Shown piece by piece: positions 3,030-63,125 of a stretch of DNA of 64,000 nt. The stretch's first letter is position 1. The number at the start of each line of letters is the position of its first letter. The position numbers and the translations under genes were made by a program. The notes under the pieces are model-generated. The model was given only the letters and a program-made list of their open reading frames with translations, searched no databases and was not told the origin of the DNA. This DNA comes from Macrostomum lignano (Eukaryota), in NCBI GenBank assembly GCA_002269645.1, contig NIVC01000712.1, positions 434,001 through 498,000 of the forward strand, read 5' to 3'.

Positions 3030-3105
<76 letters not shown>
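3030..3105. repeat. (TAAC)n microsatellite, left part of the Gypsy target array
   Basis: About 19 perfect TAAC units abutting the 5' LTR. Confidence 0.97.
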
Positions 3106-3106
<1 letters not shown>

Positions 3107-3664
3107 GTAGTAGGGCATTATTTTAGAAACGGAATTTTGCAGGTTTAAATATGCTTTTACCCTACTATCAGTAGTTTCAACCCGGGGAAATAATTAGAGC
3201 GGGGGTAAGTGGATAAAATCGGGGTTCCTTTAGAAATACAGAGCAGTTGGGCTCTTGGGAAAGAAAACGCCTTCGTTGGAGTGTCTTCTCCTGTTTAACT
3301 TAGAGAATTCACGAAGAAGTGGTAAGGAAAGGGAAATATAAAGGGATAGGTTTGCACAGAGGAGTCTTGCCTCTAAATATTGGGAGTCTTGCCCAAAACG
3401 CACAACGGGAATAAAACTAGGGAATTAATGTAACACAAATAACCTTTTGTACGCATTCTCTTTATTATTAAATATTTCCAACTGATAACTATAATCTTTG
3501 GTGTCCTGACTCACTTCTTTAATCTAAAGTACTAGACTTAGGGAAAGCAGGAAACCTGGTGGCAGCGAACTACCAAACATTTAAACAGTACCGCAGATAA
3601 TAATCCACTCATAATCCTTAGCAATAGAAACCAGTAGCTTAGCCGCGGTTACACGCCCATTCCA
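3106..3664 (+). repeat. 5' LTR
   Basis: Runs TGTAGTAGGG...GCCCATTCCA and matches 11056-11614 with no difference seen by eye. TATAAA at 3337-3342 and AATAAA at 3410-3415. Confidence 0.97.
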
Positions 3665-3666
3665 AT

Positions 3667-3676
3667 TGGTGGCAGC
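3667..3676 (+). promoter_or_regulatory. Primer-binding site, tRNA-Leu-like
   Basis: TGGTGGCAGC starts 2 nt after the LTR end and is complementary to the ...GCUGCCACCA 3' end typical of eukaryotic tRNA-Leu. The tRNA identity is from recall, not a search. Confidence 0.75.
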
Positions 3677-4118
3677 TTAGAGGATTAGAATACCCGAGAA
3701 GCGCATACATTAGACTGGAGCTTAGGATTAGTAAGGGATTAACGGATTAACTCCTATGTGCTGAAATTAGAACCAAAACTAACACAAAATTACTAATTAG
3801 GTTCTAAATTAGAGATTAATGTACATAGTCAGTTGGTCTAAGATTGTCAAATCACAGATTAACGGATTAACGGATTAGGAACGGATTAACGCTCCTGAAA
3901 GGAATTCTAACTTAGTTTCTTCGCTAGAAGATTAGTAAGGTCTCAATTAAGACCAGAAGTAAGGCGGAAGTAATAAAACTAGAGTCACTGCTGTTTTATT
4001 AACTAAAGTCTTACCATTAGGCAATTAGCAGCTAAATTCGGAGTCTTGCCAATTTAACTGACCAAAATTATTAAACCAGAAGCGTTAATTCTAAAATCCG
4101 ACCTAAAAATAAACTAAT

Positions 4119-5162
4119 ATGGAAGCGAATGACGTAGTAGAAGCACTGGCTGAAGGCATTAGAGACAGGCTAGACATTAGGAAACATATTAGAATCCAAA
4201 AGTACACGCCTAATCAGGATATAGACGTGTGGATTCAGGCTTTTGAGCAGAGGTGTATCGCAGATGAGATACCCCCAGCTGAGTGGAAGAATGAGCTACT
4301 GTCTAACCTAGATGTTCAGTCAGCGTTCGCTATCGTGACAAGGCTAAACTTAGACCCTAATCTAGCATACGCAGACTTTAAGGACAGACTAATTGAGCGA
4401 TTCACGCATGTAGGTAGTGCTCAAGAAGCTAGGGAAGAGTTCCGTAGTAGGTTCCAGTGCAAAACTGAAAGCACTGATGACTACGCTGAGAAGCTAACAG
4501 AGCTAGCATGCAGGGCGTTTCCCCATCTAACTAACGATCAGAGACAGGAAGAGGTGGTGGAACAATTTATTAGAGGTGTTAGGGTTGCCCCAGAGACTAG
4601 AGAGAAGCTACTACTAGCTCAGGTAAACTCGCTTCAAGAGACACGTCGAGTCTTGCGACGTATTGAAATGGCGTACGCTATGTCTCGCCGAGGTAGAGAC
4701 CCGCAGCAGTGTAAGGCAACTGGAGGAGAAGAAGCTGAGAATAGCTTGAAGGAATTAGTCCGCAAACAGGGTGAGGCGCTAGAGAATCAGCAGAAGGTGC
4801 TTCAGGAGTTACTCCGACACCACCAGAATGTTGAGCAGAAGGTCAACCAGCAGCAGCCGTCAGGTCAGCAGCAGCAAGGCCAGAATCAGCAGAGGCGTCC
4901 CCCAGTGAAGTGTAACAGGTGTGGCAAGCTAGGTCACGTAGCTAAGAATTGTAGACAGCCACATCCTCAGAACCAGCTTAGGTACCCGGCTCAGCAGCAG
5001 ATGCAGTATCAGCAGCCGCAGTATCAGCAGCCGCAGTATCAGCAGCCGATGTACCCACAGCAGCAAATGCAGCCGCAGTACCCGCAGCCGCATTACCCTC
5101 AGCAGCAGAATTCGGGAAACGGAATAGACGGAAGCGTCGGAGGCAACGCTTTCCAGCAGTAG
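4119..5162 (+). CDS. gag: Gypsy Gag polyprotein (347 aa)
   Basis: Retrotransposon capsid-like helical region, CX2CX4HX4C knuckle CNRCGKLGHVAKNC, and a Q/P/Y-rich tail. Confidence 0.93.
   Translation: MEANDVVEALAEGIRDRLDIRKHIRIQKYTPNQDIDVWIQAFEQRCIADEIPPAEWKNELLSNLDVQSAFAIVTRLNLDPNLAYADFKDRLIERFTHVGSAQEAREEFRSRFQCKTESTDDYAEKLTELACRAFPHLTNDQRQEEVVEQFIRGVRVAPETREKLLLAQVNSLQETRRVLRRIEMAYAMSRRGRDPQQCKATGGEEAENSLKELVRKQGEALENQQKVLQELLRHHQNVEQKVNQQQPSGQQQQGQNQQRRPPVKCNRCGKLGHVAKNCRQPHPQNQLRYPAQQQMQYQQPQYQQPQYQQPMYPQQQMQPQYPQPHYPQQQNSGNGIDGSVGGNAFQQ
5114..5153 (+). promoter_or_regulatory. -1 programmed ribosomal frameshift signal (G GGA AAC plus downstream stem-loop)
   Basis: The heptamer at 5114-5120 is in correct gag phase. 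The -1 frame is open from 4946 into pol. An 8-bp stem GGAAGCGU/ACGCUUUC spans 5130-5153. Confidence 0.8.
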
Positions 5163-8100
5163 ACCCCTCACAGTCTGTAGCCTCACAACCTGTAAATAGC
5201 AGCGATACTTTTTCTGTAAATAGTGAATTGAATTCTTCAGTGTATAACAGTACGCATGCGCAATCATTTAATCAATCATTTAATCAGCCAAACATTTATT
5301 CTCAGCACTTTTCAAACGCACCACAACAGCAACCTTATTCTAGTGAGCAGCAGCTAAAACAACCAAAATTAACTGAACAAACTAAAAAACAAAGTTATGA
5401 TCCGTACATCACTGGCAGCATTTTAAATAAGGAAATAGTTTATCTATTAGACACTGGCAGTAATAGAAATATCTTAGGACGCGAAACCTGGAAGCATCTT
5501 TTCACTGGCAAGAATAGGCATCTAATTAAGCATTGGGATAATAGAATTGTTTCTTTTATGGAAGAGCCTATTCCAATTAAGGGTTTCGTAGTTATTAAGG
5601 CAACATTTGGCGATTTCGAAGAAGAAATTGAGTTTCTATTATGTGACGCAGATGTAGACAATGTAATAGGTGTGACGTTTGTCCAAAATTATTGTACTAC
5701 TATTGACTTCGATGCAGGAATGCTAACCATGAAACAAGGAACTAGAATTCCGCTTCGATCAACCAGAGCTAAGCCTCAGGTTAGGAGAATCTATGTCGCA
5801 GAAAAGACGACAGTTCCAGCCAATAGTTCAGGATTAGTCAAGGTCAGATTAGCAGCAGGTAGTGAAAATAATTTCGGAGTGCCATCAGTTGTTGAGCCAC
5901 TCAGATCAGGATTAAAGACTAGAGCAGAGAAAGTAACCGTAGTGCCAAGTTTAGTAACTCTAAGACAAGGGGAAGCTTATTTAGAAGTGATCAACACCAG
6001 TTCACAGGAAGCGAGAGTACCAGCATCAGCATTAGTTGGGATGGCTAAACCACTCTTAGCTAGCGAGCTTAACTATCTGAAGGAACAGCCAGAAGAGGAG
6101 CAGAATAGGAACACGCAGTCTTGCGGAAACAGGGAAAAGATCAGTCAGGTGCAGGAGAAGTCAGAAGACTGGATTAGTGAGATTAACATAGGAACTGAAC
6201 TGACTCAGGAACAGAGACAAAAGGTGATCGAGGTCGTCAAGGAACATTCAGCAGCTTTCTCGCAGCACGAATTAGACTTAGGCAGAACGCATTTAGTCAC
6301 TCATGAGATTATCTTGAAGGACAACAACCCAGTTCAGATACCAGCTAGAAAGATTCCACCTCATTGGATCAAGGAGGTAGATGAACAGTTAGATCTCATG
6401 TTGGCTAGAGGCATAATTAGGCCTAGTTACTCGCAGTACTCGACTCCATTAGTCATAGTACCTAAGAAAGACGGTTCGCTGAGATTAGTTAACGACTATC
6501 GAGCACTAAACAATAAATCGGAGTACTTTCCGTATCCAATAACGAATATCAATGAAACATTTTCATGTCTCCATGGAGCCAGTCAATTCTCTACGTTAGA
6601 TCTATTTTCAGGATATTATCAGATAGCTCTTAGGGAAGAAGATAAGTGCAAGACTAGCTTTCCAACTTTACATCGAGGCTCGTTTGAGTACGAAGTATTG
6701 CCAATGGGACTGCAAGGAGCTCCAGGAACTTTTCAAAGGTGCATGAACTTAGTTCTTAAGGACATTGCACAGAAGTTCGCCATAGCTTACTTAGACGATG
6801 TAATAGTTTATAGTGCAGACTTTGAATCGCATTTAGAACACCTGAAAGAAGTGCTCAAGAGACTAATACAAGCTAACATGAAACTAAAGGCTAAGAAATG
6901 TCACCTTTTCAAATCAGAATTACAATATCTAGGACACGTCATAGGCAAAGCAGGAATTAAGAGGGATGCGTCGAAATTAGAATCAATTAGGAACTGGCCG
7001 AAACCTAAATCTGTGACAGAGCTTCGAAGTTTTCTCGGACTCTGTAATTACTATAGAAAATTCGTTAGAGATTTTGCCGAGGTAGCAGCACCACTCTGTG
7101 AGTTAACTAAGAAGAACATCAAGTGTATCCAGGACAAATGGACCAGGATTCATGATGAATGCTTCGAACTGTTGAAGGAACGGATGTGTTCCGAAGAAGT
7201 GCTTGCTTACCCAGAGTTCAATACAGACCCCCAAGTTTATTTTGTGTTAGACACTGATGCATCAGATGTCAGAATTGGGGCGGTCTTGAATCAAGTTCAG
7301 AGCGACGGCATAGAAAGACCGATCGCGTATTATAGTCGGAAGATGAGGCAGTCAGAAACTAGATATCCGATTACGAGGAAGGAGCTTCTAGCGATTGTTG
7401 ACTCGCTGAAGTACTTTAGATTTTACCTCGTAGGAAAACATTTTAAGGTGCGCACTGATCACAATGCCCTAACCTGGTTGCTTCGCCAAACCGAACAGAC
7501 AGGCATTTTAGGTCGTTGGATCGAAAGACTTTCCGAATTTGATTTTGAGATAGAACATAGGAGTGGCCCTAAACATGTGAATGCTGACGCTCTATCCAGG
7601 ATCCCTGATCCTCAACCGGAAGAGATGTCCCCACATGCCAGGTCGCTAAGCTGTAGGGCAACTGTGAATACAGACCCAGCATCAGCTTTTACTGTCAGCT
7701 CAGGCAATTCCGCGTTCGCTGAAACCTGTAGCTCGAGCAGTGGAGTTCCGTCATGCTGTTCGTCACAAGACACTGTCACGAACCGACACAATACTCCGAT
7801 CTTTAGTAGCAGTAGGCTAGACAATAGACAGGGACAGGAGCCTAAAACCGGAAATCCGCCTGCATGCAATGCCCTGCTCAGTGACTATCTCCGTAGCCCA
7901 GTTCGCCGTGACCAATTGATCGCAGCACAGCTAGCCGATCCGGCGGTAGGCTTTGTTAGAAATTTAATTGAGAATGACTCGCCTAAACCGACATTTCAAG
8001 AACGACTAGAGTTAACCCACGACTGTAGGAACCTCTTAGGTTACTATGAGTTGCTCAGAATTGAGGACGGTGTACTCAAAGTAGACTTATCTATGGGGCA

Positions 8101-9679
8101 GACTGATCCAAAGGTAGTGTTGCCCAAGTCTCTGGATAGTGAAGTATTTCACCAATTCCATGATTCACCGTTAGCGGGACACCTAGGTCGAGATAAAACT
8201 TATCAGAGAATTAAAATTCGATTTTGGAGGCCAGGATTAGCAACAGCAGTCGAACGCTACGTAGCCAAATGTAAATCGTGCTTAGAAAGCAAAACTAGAC
8301 GAAGAATTAAGGCACCAATTCAGAACTATCCTGTAGTCGAACCGTTCGGTAGATTGCACATAGATCTAATATGACCTATTGGCCAAACTAGCAAATCAGG
8401 AAACAAATATGTACTTTCAGTCATAGACAGCACTAGCAAATTTCCATTCGCATTCGCAATTAGGAATCAGAAGGCTAAAACAGTTATCAAAATTCTACAA
8501 GAACGAGTTTTCGCTGATTTTGGGATTCCACAATGGATTCACACAGACCAGGGAACACAGTTCACTGGTAGGGCCTTTAAGAAATTTTTAGACCTCTATG
8601 GCATTAGACACACTCGAACAACTAGTTATCATCCGCAGAGCAATGGCTTAGTAGAAAACCTTAATAAGCAGATTAAATCAATTCTCACCTGTTTACTGGA
8701 GAAGGAGCATTCCAACTGGGACGTTCTGTTGCCAGGTTGCATCACAGCTCTGAGAACCAGCACGCACACTGCCACAGGATTTAGTCCGCACTATTTAGTC
8801 TTTGGACGAGAGGCCAGAATGCCCTGTGACAATGAGCTGAACGAGCCAAAGCAGTTTCAGGACCTGCCATCTTATGTCCAGGAACATCAGCAGAATCTGC
8901 AGGAAGGCCAAGAACTAGCAAGAAAGAGATTAAAATTAGTGCAACAAAACCGTGAGCAGGAGTACTCTAATAAGCCTAAGCCGAAAACATTGCCTGTAGA
9001 AAGCTTAGTATTTATCAATAATCCAGTAATTGCTAACACAGAGGCTAACAAATTTCACAGAAAACAGAGGGCAGTTTACGAAATTGTAGAACAATTATCA
9101 GAAGTAGTCTTTAAGATTAGACCAGTTACCAAAAATAAGAAGGCTAGAAAGGAAGAACTTATTATGCATAGGGATAATTTAATGGAAGTACCGCAAGCAG
9201 ATTATCAGGAAGAAGAAGCTAGTACTAAGCCAAAAGAGCAGAGGAAACAATACGATAGGGAACAGTTAGCCAATAGCCAGCCGAATGTGTACAATGACTC
9301 AGAAAGTGAAGACGAGTACGAAGACGCAGTGCAGTTTATGCCAGTGCAACATCAAAATAATGAGCAGTTTATGCCAGTGCAACATCAAAATAATGAGCAG
9401 TTTATGCCAGTGCAAAATCAAAATAATGTGCAGTCAGTGCCAAATCAACAAGTGCAGCATCAAAATAATAATCAAAATAATTCAGTAGGTGTACAAGGAG
9501 TTATGCCGGTACAATTAAATAATAACAATAATAATTTAGGGATTAATTTAGAAGCTAGGCCAGCTAGAGAGCGTCATGCTCCAGATAGATTAACTGTCAG
9601 GCCAAACCAGAAAAGTTATGTACAGAGGATAGCGGAGTTGTTTAACCCATTTAACCTCTTACAGCCTAAAACTAATTAG
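5114..9679 (+). CDS. pol: Gypsy Pol (protease, RT, RNase H, integrase), interrupted by one in-frame TGA at 8372-8374
   Basis: LLDTGS protease, YLDD RT, DTDASD RNase H, HHCC zinc finger ([10 protein letters not shown]...CKSC), and DDE residues HIDLI* / HTDQG / GLVEN. ORFs 5228-8374 and 8729-9679 share one frame, and the interval between them has no other stop. Confidence 0.93.
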
Positions 9680-9681
9680 CA

Positions 9682-10536
9682 ATGGCCGACGCCCCGTTGC
9701 GAGTGTACGCTAAAAAGAAGATCTATGGACAGAAGAGGAGGAATGAAGGCCAAGAAGAAAATGAACCTCCACGAATTAGGGCTGTCCATGACGCAAGCAC
9801 GAAGTTCATCGAGGGAGAACATAAGAGGCGGAAGCTGGAACCAAGAGAAGAGGACAGTGAACCGGAAGGAGGATTAGTCGTAGACGTGAATCTAGAAGAT
9901 TTAGAGAGGGCAACCAAACAAAAGGAGGAAGAGTTCAGAGACGAGATGGCGCGATTTATGGAGGAGATACGGCAACACGAGGAAGGGGTAGAGCCCATAG
10001 ACGAGCAGGAGGAGACGGCCGCAGACGAAACGAAGTGCCAACCAGAGCAACGTCAGCCCGAGCAGTGCCACACAACGCGAGGCCAGCCTGAGCCTGCGCC
10101 GAGCCCGCTCATTGATTATGCCTCACTGCTCAGGGTAGACCTGGGTGACACGCCGGCCTTTGAAGAGACCAGCACGGAGCGTCCGGACAGCCCCGGGACA
10201 CAGGCGCGGAAATTCCGCAAGTGCCGTCGCGCTCTTAAGCGGTCTATCCTGGCCACAGGAAGAACAGGGCACTTCGAGGCTCAGCTACCGGAAGCGTGCG
10301 TCCATTTCCTGGCCACGGCGACATCAGAGGAGGCAGTCAGGTGTTTTGAAATCGCCTGCTCATACTGCCTACAGTACGCAGAAGGAAGGGCTCGGGGACC
10401 AATCAGCATGAGGGCGACCACCGAGCAGCTTGAGTTCATCGCCAGTCGATTCGACCCTGCTAATCAGCTGATTCCGGTAAACGGACTACTTTACTTGTCC
10501 ACGCAAAACACCCTAAATCTCCGGCCAGTCAATTAA
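9682..10536 (+). CDS. Additional ORF3 of the Gypsy element, unknown function, not env-like (284 aa)
   Basis: ATG lies 2 nt after the pol stop and inside the LTR boundaries. The protein has basic NLS-like motifs (KKKIYGQKRR, KRRKL), an acidic helical middle and a Cys/His-containing C-terminus. No signal peptide or TM segment is visible. Confidence 0.75.
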   Translation: MADAPLRVYAKKKIYGQKRRNEGQEENEPPRIRAVHDASTKFIEGEHKRRKLEPREEDSEPEGGLVVDVNLEDLERATKQKEEEFRDEMARFMEEIRQHEEGVEPIDEQEETAADETKCQPEQRQPEQCHTTRGQPEPAPSPLIDYASLLRVDLGDTPAFEETSTERPDSPGTQARKFRKCRRALKRSILATGRTGHFEAQLPEACVHFLATATSEEAVRCFEIACSYCLQYAEGRARGPISMRATTEQLEFIASRFDPANQLIPVNGLLYLSTQNTLNLRPVN

Positions 10537-11045
10537 GCAAAACTAGGGAACTTAATAACTCTTCCAAAGCAACATAATTACACATGCTCGATGCCATCAA
10601 ATATTTTTTTTATCATTTACCATCTTTTGGAGTAAGAACTTGCCAATTATTTTACTGCTTTTTTTTGCACCGCATTTTTTTTAGATGTTGTATACACTTG
10701 CCATTATTTGCGTTCTTTTGTTCAACTTACTCAACATTTAGCGTAACTAGTAAGCATGTCATTAATTCCTCTTATCATACTTAACATTTAATCCAGGTCT
10801 TAATAATACAATGCCATACGCATATTTCAACTTGTTCAACCACTTAATATCATTAAAGTTTTACGACTATGCATACCATTAACTTTTCCACTTGTCATAC
10901 GTGTAGACTTAATAATCCTTGCTCACTACATTGTTTGATATTCAGTCATCACTGATAAGCGCATTGATACTTATTACGTAACTCAATTTTTGTTAATAAA
11001 TATAATCATCAATGTACAAAAGGGGGTTTTGCACATTTTTGTAGC

Positions 11046-11055
11046 GAGGGGGAGG
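11046..11055 (+). promoter_or_regulatory. Polypurine tract
   Basis: GAGGGGGAGG immediately before the 3' LTR. Confidence 0.9.
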
Positions 11056-11614
11056 TGTAGTAGGGCATTATTTTAGAAACGGAATTTTGCAGGTTTAAAT
11101 ATGCTTTTACCCTACTATCAGTAGTTTCAACCCGGGGAAATAATTAGAGCGGGGGTAAGTGGATAAAATCGGGGTTCCTTTAGAAATACAGAGCAGTTGG
11201 GCTCTTGGGAAAGAAAACGCCTTCGTTGGAGTGTCTTCTCCTGTTTAACTTAGAGAATTCACGAAGAAGTGGTAAGGAAAGGGAAATATAAAGGGATAGG
11301 TTTGCACAGAGGAGTCTTGCCTCTAAATATTGGGAGTCTTGCCCAAAACGCACAACGGGAATAAAACTAGGGAATTAATGTAACACAAATAACCTTTTGT
11401 ACGCATTCTCTTTATTATTAAATATTTCCAACTGATAACTATAATCTTTGGTGTCCTGACTCACTTCTTTAATCTAAAGTACTAGACTTAGGGAAAGCAG
11501 GAAACCTGGTGGCAGCGAACTACCAAACATTTAAACAGTACCGCAGATAATAATCCACTCATAATCCTTAGCAATAGAAACCAGTAGCTTAGCCGCGGTT
11601 ACACGCCCATTCCA
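11056..11614 (+). repeat. 3' LTR
   Basis: Copy of 3106-3664 at offset 7950. Confidence 0.97.
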
Positions 11615-12560
<946 letters not shown>

Positions 12561-55345: not shown

Positions 55346-58300
55346 TAACTCCTCCTAGAATACTTGCAACTCAGCGTTGAAACTTATATGGGAAAACTGC
55401 AAATTTTCCGAGGATGGCTTTAGGCTATTTTAATCTTTCATTTTTAAATTTTAAGATCCCTAAAAAAGCAGAAAGCAGCAATTCTGACCTTTGATAATCT
55501 TATTTGTCCCCTCTTTCTGCTCGGAGCTGAAAATTGGCATAAATTTTGAGTGATTACGCCACAACTTTTTCCTATGTCGCCAGTGCGTTTTCTCTCCTGT
55601 GGGGGAATGGGCGCGTTCTCATTGGCGGCGTGTGTACAATCGGACCCTGGCTCACTGGCTGACTTTATAGACAATTGCGCAACTATTTGTGTTCTGTTTT
55701 TTAACAGGCAGCCCTGTGTATTTTTTGCACAGTGAAATTCAGTGCATTTTTACGCATAAACTTGCGAGCATCTTTAGCAGGCAGTGAACGTACACTCGAT
55801 ATTTCAATGCTTAAAATCAGAAAGTTTCAAACACTAACTGTTGCTCGAGTTTTGAACTTAGAGAGGAGAGACTTATATTGCTGGAAAGATCTTGCTGCGA
55901 TGAGTTCGGGGATATAAGTTTTTTGCTTTAAATATGAAAATTAAATTCACAGCATTCAAGAAAAGATTTTCATACTTTTAGCTTTCTGCAAAGATTTTGC
56001 TCATTTTGGAGTTCAATGGGGGTTCGACCGACCCCCCCCCAATAGTTAGTAGGGGGGGGTTCAATTTCTAGCTGCACTGCGTATTGGAAGGGGGTCGGTT
56101 GCTGTGTATTGGAGGGCTGATTTAGATTGCGCAATCTTTTTGTTAACTTTAACCGACGCTGATACTGACTGCCTGAGAAATAAGTTGCGCAATTTAATTG
56201 GTTCAATGTTTTTACGGCGCCTTTCAACACGCAGCTGTGTGTAGCTCTAACCCTAACCCTAACCCTAACCAATGAATTCTGAGAGCTGGGCTGTTTGACG
56301 GAGAAATTTCGATTTAGTCCAGTTTCACGGAGAGGATTTCTATTTCGCGGAGAATATTTCGATGGTGTTCAGTTTCACGGAGAGGATTTCGATAGTGTTC
56401 AGTTTCACGGAGACGATTTCTGTTGCGCGGAGAGGTGTTGGAAAATGGGATTCCGCTGATGGAGTTCAGGGAATGGAATTCCGCTGATTGGAGTTCTTCC
56501 CCTTTCTTCTCCGAAGGAGGAGTTGGCCTCGTCTTAATACTAAAGTTGGTGCGTTGTTTGTCTGTTTGTGTGATACATATCTCCTCCTAGATGACTTGCA
56601 TCTTAATACTAAAGTTGGTGCGTTGTTTGTCTGTTTGTGTGATACATATCTCCTCCTAGATGACTTGCAATCTTAATACTAAAGTTGGTGCGTTGTTTGT
56701 CTGTTTGTGTGATACATATCTTCTTAATACTAAAGTTGGTGCGTTGTTTGTCTGTTTGTGTGATACATATCTCCTCCTAGATGACTTGCAAGTCAGCGTT
56801 GAAACTTACATGGGAAAACTGCAAATTTTCCGAGGATGGCAGTGGGCTATTTCAATTTTTTATTTTCACGTCTTAAGATCCCTAAAAAAGCAGAAGTAGT
56901 AAAACAATAGGGGAATTTGAACATCTTGCGTAATTTACAATTATTGCGCCACAACAGCCGGCCTATCTGTGCAGTGTATTCTTTCAACTGAAGGGGTGTA
57001 AGCTGGGCCGGTTGACATCAATTTTTAGCGATTGCGCCACAACTGTGTGCACTGAGAACTTAACCAAACCCCCCTGTGTTGAGGGTGCTGGGGCGGCAGT
57101 GGAATTCAATGAATAAACTTGCAAGCCTTTTTAGCAGGCAGTGCACGTATGCGTACACTCGATAGTTCAATGCTTTAAATTGGGATATTTCAAACGCCAA
57201 CTGTTCCTCGAGTTTTGAACTCTGAGAGAAGAGACTTATATTGCTGGAAAGATCTTTCAATGCTGACTTCGAGGATATAAGTTGTTTGCTTTAAATATGA
57301 AAGCAAAAAGCAAAGCAAAAGCAAAGACGATATTTCAATACTTTTAACTCTCTGCAAAGATTGTACTCATTTTACGGGTTCAATGGGGGTTCGACCGACA
57401 CCCCAACAGTTAGGGGGGGGGGGGGTTGAATTTCTAACCTTCACTGCGTATTGGAAGGGGTCGGTCGCTGTGTATTGGAGGGTTGATTTAGATTGCGCAA
57501 TTTTTTTTCCTAATTTTACCGAGACTGATACTGAATGACTATGAAATTGGTTGCGCATTCAATTGATTCAATTGGTTCAATTTTTTTATCGGCGCCTTTC
57601 AACACGCTGCTGTGTGTAGCTCGAACCCTAACCCTAACCCTAACCCTAACCATTGAATCCTGAGAGTTTATTCCCTTTGACGGACAAATTTCGATTGAGT
57701 CCAGTTTCACGGAGAGAATTTCAATGGTTTTCAGTTTCTTGGAGAGGATTTCTGTCTTGCGGAGAGGATTTCGATGGTTTTCAGTTTCACGGAGAGGATT
57801 TCTGTTTCGTGGAGAGAATTTTGATGTATTTCTGTTTTACGGAGACAATTTTGATGGATTTTAGTTTCACGCAGAGGATTTCCTTGGAGTTCAGTTTCCC
57901 GGAGAGGATTTCTGTTTCGCGGAGAGGATTTCGATGGTGTTCAGTTTTGCGGTGAGGAGTTGGATGATGGGATTCAGTTGGTGGATTTCAGGGAATGGAA
58001 TTCCGGTGATGGGAGTTCTTCCCCTTTCTCCTCCAGCAGAGGAGTTGGCCTCCTAATACTAAAACTCTAGCGATGTTTGTTTTTTTGTCCGTATGTTGCA
58101 ACTTTTCTCCTAGACTACTGGCAAGTCAGCGTTGAAACTTATATGGGAAAACTGCAAATTTTCCGGACTGGGTTTATAGCTATTTTAATCTCTCATTTTC
58201 TCATTTTGAGATCCCTAAAAAAGCAGAAAACTGATTTCCTAACCTTCTTTGGCCCTCCTGTGGCTACTCTGTCTCTCCAGTGGAGGGGTTGCAGTCTGTT

Positions 58301-61300: not shown

Positions 61301-63125
61301 TAACTAGCGCTGTGTATAGGAAGGGGGTCAGTCACTTTGTATTGGAGGGTTGATTTAGATTGCGCAAACTTTTTGTTAACTTAACTTTTTGTTAACTTTA
61401 ACTGAGACTGATACTGACTGACTGAGAAATCGGTTGCGCAATCAATTGATTCAATTGGTTCAATGTTTTATTATCGGTGCATTTTAACACGCAGCTCTGT
61501 GAAGCTCCAACCCTAACCCTAACCCTAACCCTAACCACAGAATCCTGAGAGTTGATTTGTTTGACGGAGAAACTTTCGATTGAGTCCAGTTTCACGGAGA
61601 GGATTTCTGTTTCGCGGAGAGGATTTCGATGGTGTTCAGTTTCACGGAGAGGATTTTGATGGATTTGGAGAACAGTTAGATGATATTCGGGTCTTGGGAT
61701 TCAGCTGATGGAGTTCAGGGAATGGAATTCCGGTGATGGGAGTTCTTCCCCTTTCTCCTCCAGAGGAGGAGTTGGCCTCGTCGTTAATACTAAAACTGCT
61801 GCGTTGTTTGTGTGTATGTATGTTGTAAGTGAACTCCTACAATACTGCCAAGTCAGCGTCGAAACTTATATGGGAAAACTGCAAATTTTCCGGATCAGGC
61901 TTTAGGCTATTTTAATTTTTAATTTTCACATTTTAACATCCCTAAAAAAGCAGAAAACTGCTTTTTTTTAACTCCCAATAACCTTCTTTGGCCACTCTGA
62001 CTGGGGCTGCAGCCAGTTTGTAAAAATAGCCACCCCAACCTCCGCCCGCGGGCCGCTGTGTATTGAGGGGTGGTGGGTGCGCGTGTTCTGGGTTCAATGC
62101 AAATAAAACCCCCCGCGTGTTGGGGGGTTGAGTTAAATTTAATGATTCCCCCAGAACGGGGGTTGGGCTTGGGCTGAGTGTACATAGCAGTTGTACAGTG
62201 TAAACAGATAGATAGGAATCAGGACTGTGTCGAGATTCAATTGGTTTTATTATTGGCGCCTTTTTTTCTCCATAGGCATCCCTGTGTATTAGCTTAGCAG
62301 TGAAATTCAATGAATTGCGAGCTTCTCTAGCAAGCAGTCGGGAAATCGGTAAATTTCAAACGCTAACTGTTCCTCGAGTTTTAAACTTTGAGAGGAGACA
62401 CTTATATTGCTGAAAAGATCTTGCAACGCAGAGTTCGAGGATATAAGTTGTTTGCTTTATATATGAAAACTAAAAGCTTTTCATTGGGAAAACTATTCCC
62501 ATACTTTTAACTTTTTGCAAAAATTGTAATCAGTTTTGCGAGACGTAATAGTAAAGTTGGGGGGAGGGTTCAACTTCTCACTGCTGCTGTGTATTGGAGG
62601 GTTGATTTACATTGACTGACTGACTGTGAAATCAGTTGCGCAATGAATTGATTCAATTAGTTCAATATTTTTATCAGTGCCTTTTAACACAAACCTGTAC
62701 GTAGTTCTAACCCTAACCCTAACCCTAACCAATGAATCCGGAGAGTTGAGTTGTTTGACGGAAAAAATTCGATTGAGTCCAGTTTAGCGGAGACGATTTC
62801 AATGTTTTAATTTTGACAAAGAGGATTTCTGTTTCGTGGAGAGGATTTCGATGGTGTTCAGTTTTGTGGAGAGGATTTCGATGGTGTTCAGTTTCGTGGA
62901 AAGGATTTCGATGATGTTCAGTTTCACGGAGAGGATTTCGATAATGTTCAGCTTCACGGAGAGGATTTCTGTTTCGCGGAGATAATTTATGATTGATTTC
63001 TGTTTTATGGAGACAATTTTGATGGATTTAAGTTTCACGGAGAGGATTTCGATGGTTTTCAGTTGCACGGACAGGATTTTTCTGCTTCGCGGAGAGGATC
63101 TTGATGGATTTGGCATCTTCAATCA
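55300..63125. repeat. Diverged macrosatellite, 6 units of ~1.2-1.4 kb, each with a (CCCTAA)2-4 seed and an AGTTTCACGGAGAGGATTT subrepeat
   Basis: The anchor GTCAGCGTTGAAACTTATATGGGAAAACTGCAAATTTTCC recurs near 55375, 56790, 58125, 59420, 60640 and 61855. CCCTAA runs lie at ~56247, 57624, 59058, 60342, 61509 and 62707. Confidence 0.9.

What the first reader, a model, noticed from the sequence alone, without database searches (positions are those of the whole stretch)
9640..10536. Gypsy element carries a non-env third ORF with nuclear-protein features and its own splice-acceptor-like site
Seen: a 284-aa ORF starts 2 nt after the pol stop. A strong 3' splice site (TTTAAC branch-like sequence, CCTCTTACAG ending at 9664) lies 17 nt before the ATG. 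GTAAGG donor-like sites occur in the 5' leader (~3730, ~3935, ~3959). The protein has no signal peptide or TM helix, so it is not an env. It has NLS-like KRRKL and KKKIYGQKRR, an acidic-flanked LVVDV (SUMO-interacting-motif-like) and a ~110-aa Cys/His-containing C-terminus. Known: errantivirus env is made from a spliced subgenomic RNA at this position. Inference: a subgenomically expressed nuclear accessory protein, perhaps an anti-silencing or targeting factor linked to insertion into (TAAC)n.
Basis: partly seen in the sequence, partly recalled or inferred. Interest (0 to 1): 0.78.

Follow-up and report, generated by a model that had tools for sequence, protein, structure and literature searches.

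The report
Retrotransposon gene borrows host spliced leader
A branch of jumping genes in a flatworm carries an extra, long-conserved gene that resembles nothing known; in one public sequencing run its message is joined to the host's own leader RNA exactly at the predicted site, so the element likely runs as a small operon, and the protein likely acts in the nucleus through SUMO.

Summary
ORF3 (9682-10536, 284 aa) is a real gene. It is open in 20 of 37 distinct copies, dN/dS is below 1 in all 8 measurable pairs, it has no transmembrane segment and no homologue was found outside this genome.

The acceptor at 9664 is real too (30 of 31 family segments; 19 of 20 sister-family loci). But the only junction seen is not from the element's leader. 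One contig in one run joins the host spliced leader (SL) to this acceptor in a sibling copy, and none of 61 genomic SL matches is followed by the element. SL trans-splicing is therefore the likely route.

ORF3 alleles 40-72% identical sit on pol genes 96-99% identical. Sister families carry a probable remote homologue, often fused to integrase, with textbook SUMO-binding motifs. (TAAC)n targeting is not supported (2 of 49 insertion sites). The function is untested; a SUMO-binding chromatin factor is my best guess.

Closest precedent: C. elegans Cer1/CERV. This scan earlier found other non-env third genes (J-domain) in this genome, but not this one or the SL junction.

The parts
3030..3106 (+). 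(TAAC)n host array, left of the insertion; 4-bp target duplication
3107..3664 (+). 5' LTR, 558 nt, identical to the 3' LTR; TATAAA at 3337, AATAAA at 3410
3667..3679 (+). primer-binding site (TGG-starting), 2 nt after the LTR
   Evidence: the priming tRNA was not identified
3731..3964 (+). three GTAAGG donor-like sites (3731, 3935, 3959); variably kept between copies, no junction seen
4119..5162 (+). gag, 347 aa (Retrotrans_gag, one zf-CCHC)
4982..9679 (+). pol frame (PR-RT-RNase H-IN); interrupted in this copy by an in-frame stop at 8372-8374
9641..9664 (+). 3' splice site inside the last pol codons: two TTTAAC and TTACAG; site of SL addition in a sibling copy
9682..10536 (+). ORF3, 284 aa, orphan accessory gene
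9682..9780 (+). ORF3 residues 1-33: conserved basic motif K-x-I-Y-[GS]-x-x-R-R and [DE]ENEPP, predicted disordered
9874..9888 (+). LVVDV, SUMO-interacting-motif-like, flanked by acidic residues
   Evidence: 14 of 16 family members; VIDLT-type in sisters; binding untested
9892..9984 (+). predicted acidic helix, residues 71-101
10192..10506 (+). predicted five-helix C-terminal domain, residues 171-275; no fold match
10537..11056 (+). A/T-rich 3' untranslated region ending in the polypurine tract; not more structured than shuffles
11057..11614 (+). 3' LTR
11615..12560 (+). (TAAC)n host array, right of the insertion

Best explanation
ORF3 is a conserved, non-env accessory gene of a flatworm Ty3/gypsy branch; its mRNA is likely cut out of a longer element transcript by the host's spliced-leader trans-splicing at the acceptor in the end of pol, and its protein is likely a nuclear, SUMO-binding factor that acts on chromatin for the element. 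Steps: (1) shown: intact, selected gene in many copies. (2) Shown once, in a sibling copy: SL joined at the acceptor. (3) Inferred: the precursor is the LTR-driven RNA, so that each transcript either stays whole (Gag, Pol, genome) or gives up its 6-kb front part and becomes ORF3 mRNA; an internal promoter is not excluded. (4) Inferred: the SL's own AUG opens only a 3-5 codon frame that ends at the pol stop, so ORF3 would be read by leaky scanning or re-initiation. (5) Inferred: basic motifs import the protein; the SIM docks it on SUMO-modified chromatin proteins, most plausibly to blunt silencing of the element or of new insertions; the helical domain binds an unknown partner. (6) Shown as a pattern: old, diverged ORF3 alleles are exchanged among near-identical pol backbones.
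For: Gene: 20 of 37 distinct copies have a full open frame. Of 22 pairs, 14 have saturated dS and 8 are measurable, all with dN/dS below 1 (0.06-0.53); the bootstrap interval excludes 1 in 6 of the 8. Splicing: in run X7 one 499-nt contig (depth 9.1) starts at the acceptor G (L013:1331 = window 9664) behind 20 loose nt. These plus the shared G are the last 21 nt of the published 35-nt SL (PMC8629364). Its 7 differences from L013 match copy L003, a full-length element 93.7% identical to the window's. The stretch laid holds 44 AG and 2 YTNCAG. Of 61 genomic matches to the SL 21-mer, 30 are followed by GTAAG and none by the element. The acceptor fits the published trans-splice motif [T/C]TNCAG with the N position varying. 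In sister families it recurs 56 or 68 nt after the integrase-tail motif K[ST]Y (54 in the window) in 19 of 20 loci, in a different pol codon phase, against 6.6% of 30-nt control windows; the one locus without it also lacks ORF3. Protein: SIM-like motif in 14 of 16 family members; VIDLT/IINLD-type motifs in 13 of 20 sister loci. In 7 of 20 sister loci the frame runs unbroken from the integrase core to the end of ORF3, which fits a role near integrase and chromatin. Sister and window domains align gap-free over 47-49 columns, P=0.003-0.009, above all 100 column shuffles. Mosaic: RT to IN core 96-99% nt identical while the ORF3 C-part is 63-64%.
Against: The SL junction rests on one contig in 1 of the 4 runs laid narrowly; that run is only guessed to be RNA, 8 of 31 loose ends were not shown, and the contig belongs to a sibling copy whose ORF3 is broken near its end in G000, not to the window copy. 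YTNCAG is also an ordinary cis acceptor, and the element has 15 such sites. Donor-like sites exist upstream and could compete. SIM-like motifs are short and common; 7 of 20 sister loci show none. The homology to sister ORF3s is weak by hhalign probability (5-9%). No fold or family match points to any function. Nothing here shows a protein, a location or an effect on silencing.
Confidence: 0.5

Rival explanations
1. Same SL-spliced mRNA, but the protein is a Rev/CERV-like regulator: made from the processed RNA, it returns to the nucleus and protects or exports the unspliced genomic RNA.
For: Direct precedent: Cer1 cerv mRNA is spliced, can carry SL1, and CERV is needed for export of unspliced RNA (PMC3315495 passages; PMC10309623 sections 9 and 15). 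The element must keep a usable acceptor unused to make Pol and genome. ORF3 has a conserved arginine/lysine-rich N-terminal motif.
Against: No conserved export-signal-like motif among the 10 members scanned. The 3' UTR is not more structured than shuffles in 11 types (z -0.6 to +2.7). C-domain types are not tied to one UTR or U3 type. No conserved Cys loop. Fusion to integrase in sisters is not explained.
Confidence: 0.2
2. ORF3 is an integration-targeting module, in cis when fused to integrase and in trans when separate; in the first reader's version it steers insertion into (TAAC)n.
For: Unbroken integrase-ORF3 frames in 7 of 20 sister loci. A second copy lies in a (GTTA)n array; 2 hits are somewhat more than expected if such arrays fill 0.1-0.3% of the genome (binomial P 0.001-0.01).
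Against: 47 of 49 distinct host flanks are not in the repeat (51 flanks listed, 2 of them polypurine tracts). The two that are carry different ORF3 alleles, and copies with the same alleles sit elsewhere. A general A/T pattern at the target (T at -6 in 34 of 51, A/T at -7 in 48 of 51) can account for the hits.
Confidence: 0.13
3. SL addition is incidental. ORF3 is mainly expressed by cis-splicing from the leader, from an internal promoter, or by re-initiation after the pol stop on the genomic RNA.
For: Three GTAAGG in the leader against 0.63 expected; a perfect GTAAGT 38 nt before gag in 3 of 4 copies of the divergent subfamily. The pol stop lies 2-4 nt before the ATG. Contigs also run through the acceptor unspliced. 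Any free acceptor may attract SL in this host.
Against: No leader-to-acceptor joint among 11 joints in 4 runs and no leader sequence among 23 loose ends shown, though contigs drop rare forms. Donors differ between subfamilies while the acceptor is fixed. In fused sisters there is no stop to re-initiate after, yet acceptor and Met are kept.
Confidence: 0.14
4. ORF3 is a decayed env or a passively carried host exon.
For: It occupies the env position; 17 of 37 copies are broken.
Against: No hydrophobic segment in 16 members; purifying selection; all 83 genomic matches examined by locus were element-associated where context was read, and no host or viral homologue was found.
Confidence: 0.03

Closest known systems
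Cer1 / CERV of C. elegans (PMC3315495 passages; PMC10309623 abstract, sections 9 and 15)
   Same: Gypsy-class element; nuclear orphan accessory protein from a processed mRNA that can carry the host spliced leader, while the genomic RNA skips the site.
   Different: cerv is a five-exon cis-spliced mRNA sharing exons with gag, with SL1 added near the 5' end. Here the acceptor is at the far end of pol and frees a separate downstream cistron. No CERV-like Cys loop or G-domain is seen; direct sequence comparison with CERV was not run.
Errantivirus env from a spliced subgenomic RNA (recalled; PMC3383448 seen as search listing only)
   Same: Third ORF directly after pol with an acceptor just before it.
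   Different: No signal peptide or TM helix; the junction seen is SL, not leader donor.
Non-env ORF3s of bdelloid Juno/Vesta elements (PMC5408684 abstract and section 3.3)
   Same: Family-specific extra gene in the env slot of animal LTR retrotransposons.
   Different: Those are recognisable enzymes (GDSL esterase, DEDDy exonuclease); this is an orphan helical domain with linear motifs.
SL-resolved operons of Macrostomum lignano (PMC8629364 parts 1-2 of 4; PMC5730564 passages)
   Same: Same 35-nt SL and [T/C]TNCAG acceptor; downstream cistrons are freed by SL addition.
   Different: Here the acceptor lies inside the upstream reading frame, before its stop, so use of the site would destroy the upstream message instead of releasing two mRNAs.

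Membership tests
Ty3/gypsy LTR retrotransposon | LTRs, PBS, PPT, target duplication | tested here: met
Ty3/gypsy LTR retrotransposon | gag, then pol in the order PR-RT-RH-IN; RT closest to Ty3 | tested here: met
Named gypsy clade (Mag, CsRN1, Gmr1/Osvaldo, Mdg3/Micropia) | RT groups with reference elements of the clade | tested here: inconclusive
   window groups (99) with three M. lignano-labelled proteins and one unnamed one; no named references in the tree; quick tree only; 58 rows of 121 held
env fusion glycoprotein | signal peptide and C-terminal TM helix | tested here: not met
   best 19-aa hydropathy 0.19-0.65 in 16 members
env fusion glycoprotein | sequence or fold match to a viral fusogen | tested here: inconclusive
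   no match; absence does not exclude
SL trans-spliced gene | SL sequence joined at the 5' end of the exon in RNA | tested here: met
   one contig, one run, sibling copy L003-type; not shown for the window copy
SL trans-spliced gene | [T/C]TNCAG acceptor | tested here: met
SL trans-spliced gene | junction absent from genomic DNA | tested here: met
   0 of 61 exact SL matches in G000 lead into the element; strain-specific copies not excluded
Operon-type downstream cistron | precursor comes from the upstream (LTR) promoter | not testable with these tools
   contigs show no start sites or strand
Rev/CERV-type export factor | made from the processed RNA | tested here: met
Rev/CERV-type export factor | conserved export signal and structured response element | tested here: inconclusive
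   none conserved by simple scans; only the 3' UTR was folded
Rev/CERV-type export factor | needed for export of unspliced RNA | not testable with these tools
   needs knock-down
SIM-containing SUMO binder | hydrophobic core with acidic flank in a disordered region, conserved | tested here: met
SIM-containing SUMO binder | binds SUMO through the motif | not tested
Histone fold | three-helix fold matching histones or TAFs | tested here: inconclusive
   feature hits at 0.75-0.81 for the window allele not reproduced with a 45% identical allele; model is a compact five-helix bundle, no histone-fold row
Zinc-binding domain | conserved set of Cys/His ligands | tested here: not met
   one invariant Cys, no conserved His

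The most novel reading that the evidence does not exclude
A whole branch of flatworm LTR retrotransposons is built as a host-style operon: a trans-splice acceptor hidden in the integrase tail switches each transcript between genome and accessory mRNA. The accessory product is a new family of SUMO-binding anti-silencing proteins that is fused to integrase in some families, split off in others, and swapped as old diverged alleles under conflict with the host.
Probability: 0.3. Interest if true: 0.85.

Novelty: new variant of a known kind. Interest (0 to 1): 0.66.

Why it matters
It would show a retroelement using SL trans-splicing, not its own donors, to express a gene downstream of pol. The ten literature searches run here found only the 5'-end SL1 case of Cer1. 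It offers a simple explanation for why other third genes in this genome showed no cis-spliced message, and a one-primer test. It also adds an orphan protein family in a species with transgenesis, where an element-encoded handle on SUMO-dependent silencing could be tested directly. Limits: one junction, no function, and the library misses most subscription papers.

Tried and rejected
Homologue searches. None at E<=1 among 1319 candidates (lengths 156-497 aa only). A profile over 1.84 billion representatives gave 8 multi-stretch hits; the 5 scanned were WD40, Ig-like or zinc-finger repeat proteins and were rejected. Pfam, NCBIfam and PDB sequences gave nothing significant. A metagenome scan with the integrase core found no relative among 473 pattern hits.

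RNA. No RNA holder was listed on record; the runs are guesses and contigs only. The joint 5187-8687 has 6 nt fitting both sides and reads as a deletion. The leader-to-integrase joint in L067 sits at a short shared sequence, not at splice sites. No genomic copy joined at the acceptor was seen in 22 loci inspected.

Co-evolution of ORF3 with its LTR or 3' UTR: not strict in 26 of 54 loci that could be typed.

Supplements of PMC12801592: 5 files held as text, no hit for 4 terms; its alignment files may hold this family and may not have been searchable.

Full report
THE ELEMENT. The window holds a full-length Ty3/gypsy element at 3107-11614 with identical 558-nt LTRs, gag at 4119-5162, pol in the order PR-RT-RH-IN and a 4-bp target duplication inside a (TAAC)n array. 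Pol is interrupted by an in-frame stop at 8372-8374 in this copy. A 99% identical RT belongs to a protein labelled Macrostomum lignano by its source (P0010); I take that as the host. A quick RT tree of 58 of 121 rows groups the element with other M. lignano-labelled proteins but names no clade.

ORF3 IS A REAL GENE. A search of G000 with the C-terminal part gave 83 matches at 37-100% identity. Of 37 distinct copies read from the ATG behind the acceptor, 20 are open to the end and 17 are broken. In 22 pairwise comparisons dS was saturated in 14; the 8 measurable pairs gave dN/dS 0.06-0.53, with the interval below 1 in 6 and spanning 1 in two near-identical pairs. No member of 16 has a hydrophobic segment, so it is not an env; the Cys/His residues are not conserved as a set. 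AlphaFold gives a confident five-helix domain at 171-275 (pLDDT 87.7, pTM 0.82, 15 sequences), a helix at 71-101 and disorder elsewhere. No sequence or fold relative outside this genome was found. A histone-fold hint did not repeat with a diverged allele.

ORF3 MOVES AS A CASSETTE. Against the window copy, L074, L079 and L080 are 96-99% identical over RT to integrase core, but 63-64% over the ORF3 C-part and 59-68% over the 3' UTR. L068 has 98% in RT and a 40% identical ORF3 protein. Synonymous saturation between such alleles means they are old and have been exchanged onto a homogenised backbone (inference). Half-gene chimeras exist (window versus L002 and L080). This is what conflict with a host would leave, but it does not prove it.

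THE ACCEPTOR IS USED BY THE HOST SPLICED LEADER. TTNCAG is kept in 30 of 31 distinct segments recovered by an upstream anchor; the exception is a deletion. The gap to the ATG is 13-18 nt and the frame relative to pol varies, so read-through is not the rule. Laying 4 runs on the whole element showed 11 joints, none from the leader to 9665. Laying 4 runs on 381 nt around the acceptor of L013 showed 23 of 31 loose ends; one, in run X7, is 20 nt joined at the acceptor G. With that G it equals the last 21 nt of the 35-nt SL in PMC8629364 (parts 1-2 of 4 read), which also gives [T/C]TNCAG as the trans-splice motif and 30% of genes as trans-spliced. The contig's 7 differences from L013 and its continuation match L003, a full-length copy 93.7% identical to the window's whose ORF3 is broken near its end. 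G000 has 61 exact matches to the 21-mer: 30 are followed by GTAAG, as SL RNA genes should be, and none leads into the element. So the junction is not in this assembly. Limits: one contig, one run guessed to be RNA, a sibling copy, contigs without strand or start information; other contigs cross the site unspliced. The SL ends in AUG; in 16 of 17 acceptor classes that AUG would open only 3-5 codons ending at the pol stop.

SISTER FAMILIES. Twenty loci with integrase cores 63-70% identical were taken from 150 scored matches. Nineteen have YTNCAG 56 or 68 nt after the tail motif K[ST]Y (54 nt in the window) and an ATG 6-24 nt later; 6.6% of 740 control windows hold the motif. The site lies in a different pol codon phase, so the constraint is on the RNA. 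L256 lacks both acceptor and ORF3. In 7 of 20 the frame runs unbroken from the integrase core to the end of ORF3, so the same domain is a Pol extension there and would also be made alone. Thirteen of 20 carry VIDLT- or IINLD-type motifs; that these are SUMO-interacting motifs is recalled knowledge. Their C-terminal domains align with the window family gap-free over 47-49 columns, P 0.003 and 0.009, above all 100 column shuffles and a reversed control, but with hhalign probability only 5-9%. I read this as probable remote homology, helped by the shared position.

TARGETING. Of 89 LTR starts of the window's type, 83 were read; they give 49 distinct host flanks after setting aside polypurine-tract ends, and 2 lie in (TAAC)n/(GTTA)n. 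That is a mild excess over an array share of about 0.1-0.3% (my estimate), but the two copies carry different ORF3 alleles, and flanks share a loose A/T pattern that such arrays fit. ORF3-directed insertion into this repeat is not supported.

HOW IT LIKELY WORKS. Shown: a selected orphan gene; a fixed acceptor across the branch; SL joined there once. Inferred: the LTR transcript is either kept whole or trans-spliced to give ORF3 mRNA; the protein enters the nucleus and binds SUMO-modified chromatin proteins to protect the element (0.5 for the whole chain; about 0.8 for SL trans-splicing alone). Rivals: CERV/Rev-like export factor (0.2), integration tether (0.13), other expression route (0.14), decayed env or passenger (0.03). 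SUMO binding could not be modelled here.

WHAT IS KNOWN. Cer1 of C. elegans makes the nuclear export factor CERV from a spliced mRNA found with and without SL1, while the 8-kb RNA skips that site (PMC3315495 passages; PMC10309623 abstract and sections 9, 15). Non-env third ORFs are described in bdelloid rotifers (PMC5408684 abstract and section 3.3). A paper on this species' LTR elements has no occurrence of 'ORF' or 'splic' in its main text (PMC12801592 passages). PMC5730564 and PMC4558846 were read as passages. Ten searches found no report of SL freeing a gene downstream of pol, nor of this protein. Earlier notes of this scan describe J-domain third genes in other elements of this genome, with no spliced message seen (unchecked); look-ups by sequence found nothing.

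VERDICT. A new variant of a known kind: real, clade-wide, with an unexpected expression route seen once and a function still to be shown. Interest 0.66.

Noticed in passing
window 5114-5120: GGGAAAC slippery-type heptamer where pol overlaps the end of gag in the -1 frame; likely the gag-pol frameshift site.
   Followed up: no
window 8372-8374: In-frame stop in integrase although the LTRs are identical; this young copy cannot make a full Pol by itself.
   Followed up: partly
L256 1483-1600: A sister family member that has lost both the acceptor and ORF3; a natural control.
   Followed up: partly
window 5187/8687: Joint skipping 3499 nt with 6 nt of shared sequence in run X6 (loose end also in X1): probably an internally deleted derivative keeping gag and ORF3.
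   Followed up: partly
L013:1204: A contig of run X1 joins an LTR 3' end directly to the pol tail of another ORF3 variant; nested insertion or deleted derivative.
   Followed up: no
L093-L153: 31 of 61 genomic SL matches are not SL RNA genes: 10 sit in one repeat continuing AACCAT, others look like reverse-transcribed SL mRNAs. The 30 true genes often recur at about 11-kb spacing.
   Followed up: partly
L167-L249: Loose target-site pattern of this family: T at -6 (34 of 51), A/T at -7 (48 of 51), A at -2 (31 of 51).
   Followed up: partly
window 9754-9771: [DE]ENEPP in 13 of 16 ORF3s, and KEN near the start of ORF3 in L269; recalls KEN/DEN-box degrons (from memory, untested).
   Followed up: no
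window 15900-45000: A unit of about 10.9 kb recurs two to three times and carries 16- and 17-bp minisatellites.
   Followed up: no
window 57624-57651 and 61509-61536: Short (AACCCT)n telomere-like runs inside a 1.3-kb repeat region.
   Followed up: no
L155-L161: Seven matches to an intron-less SUMO gene, several as inverted pairs on one contig.
   Followed up: no
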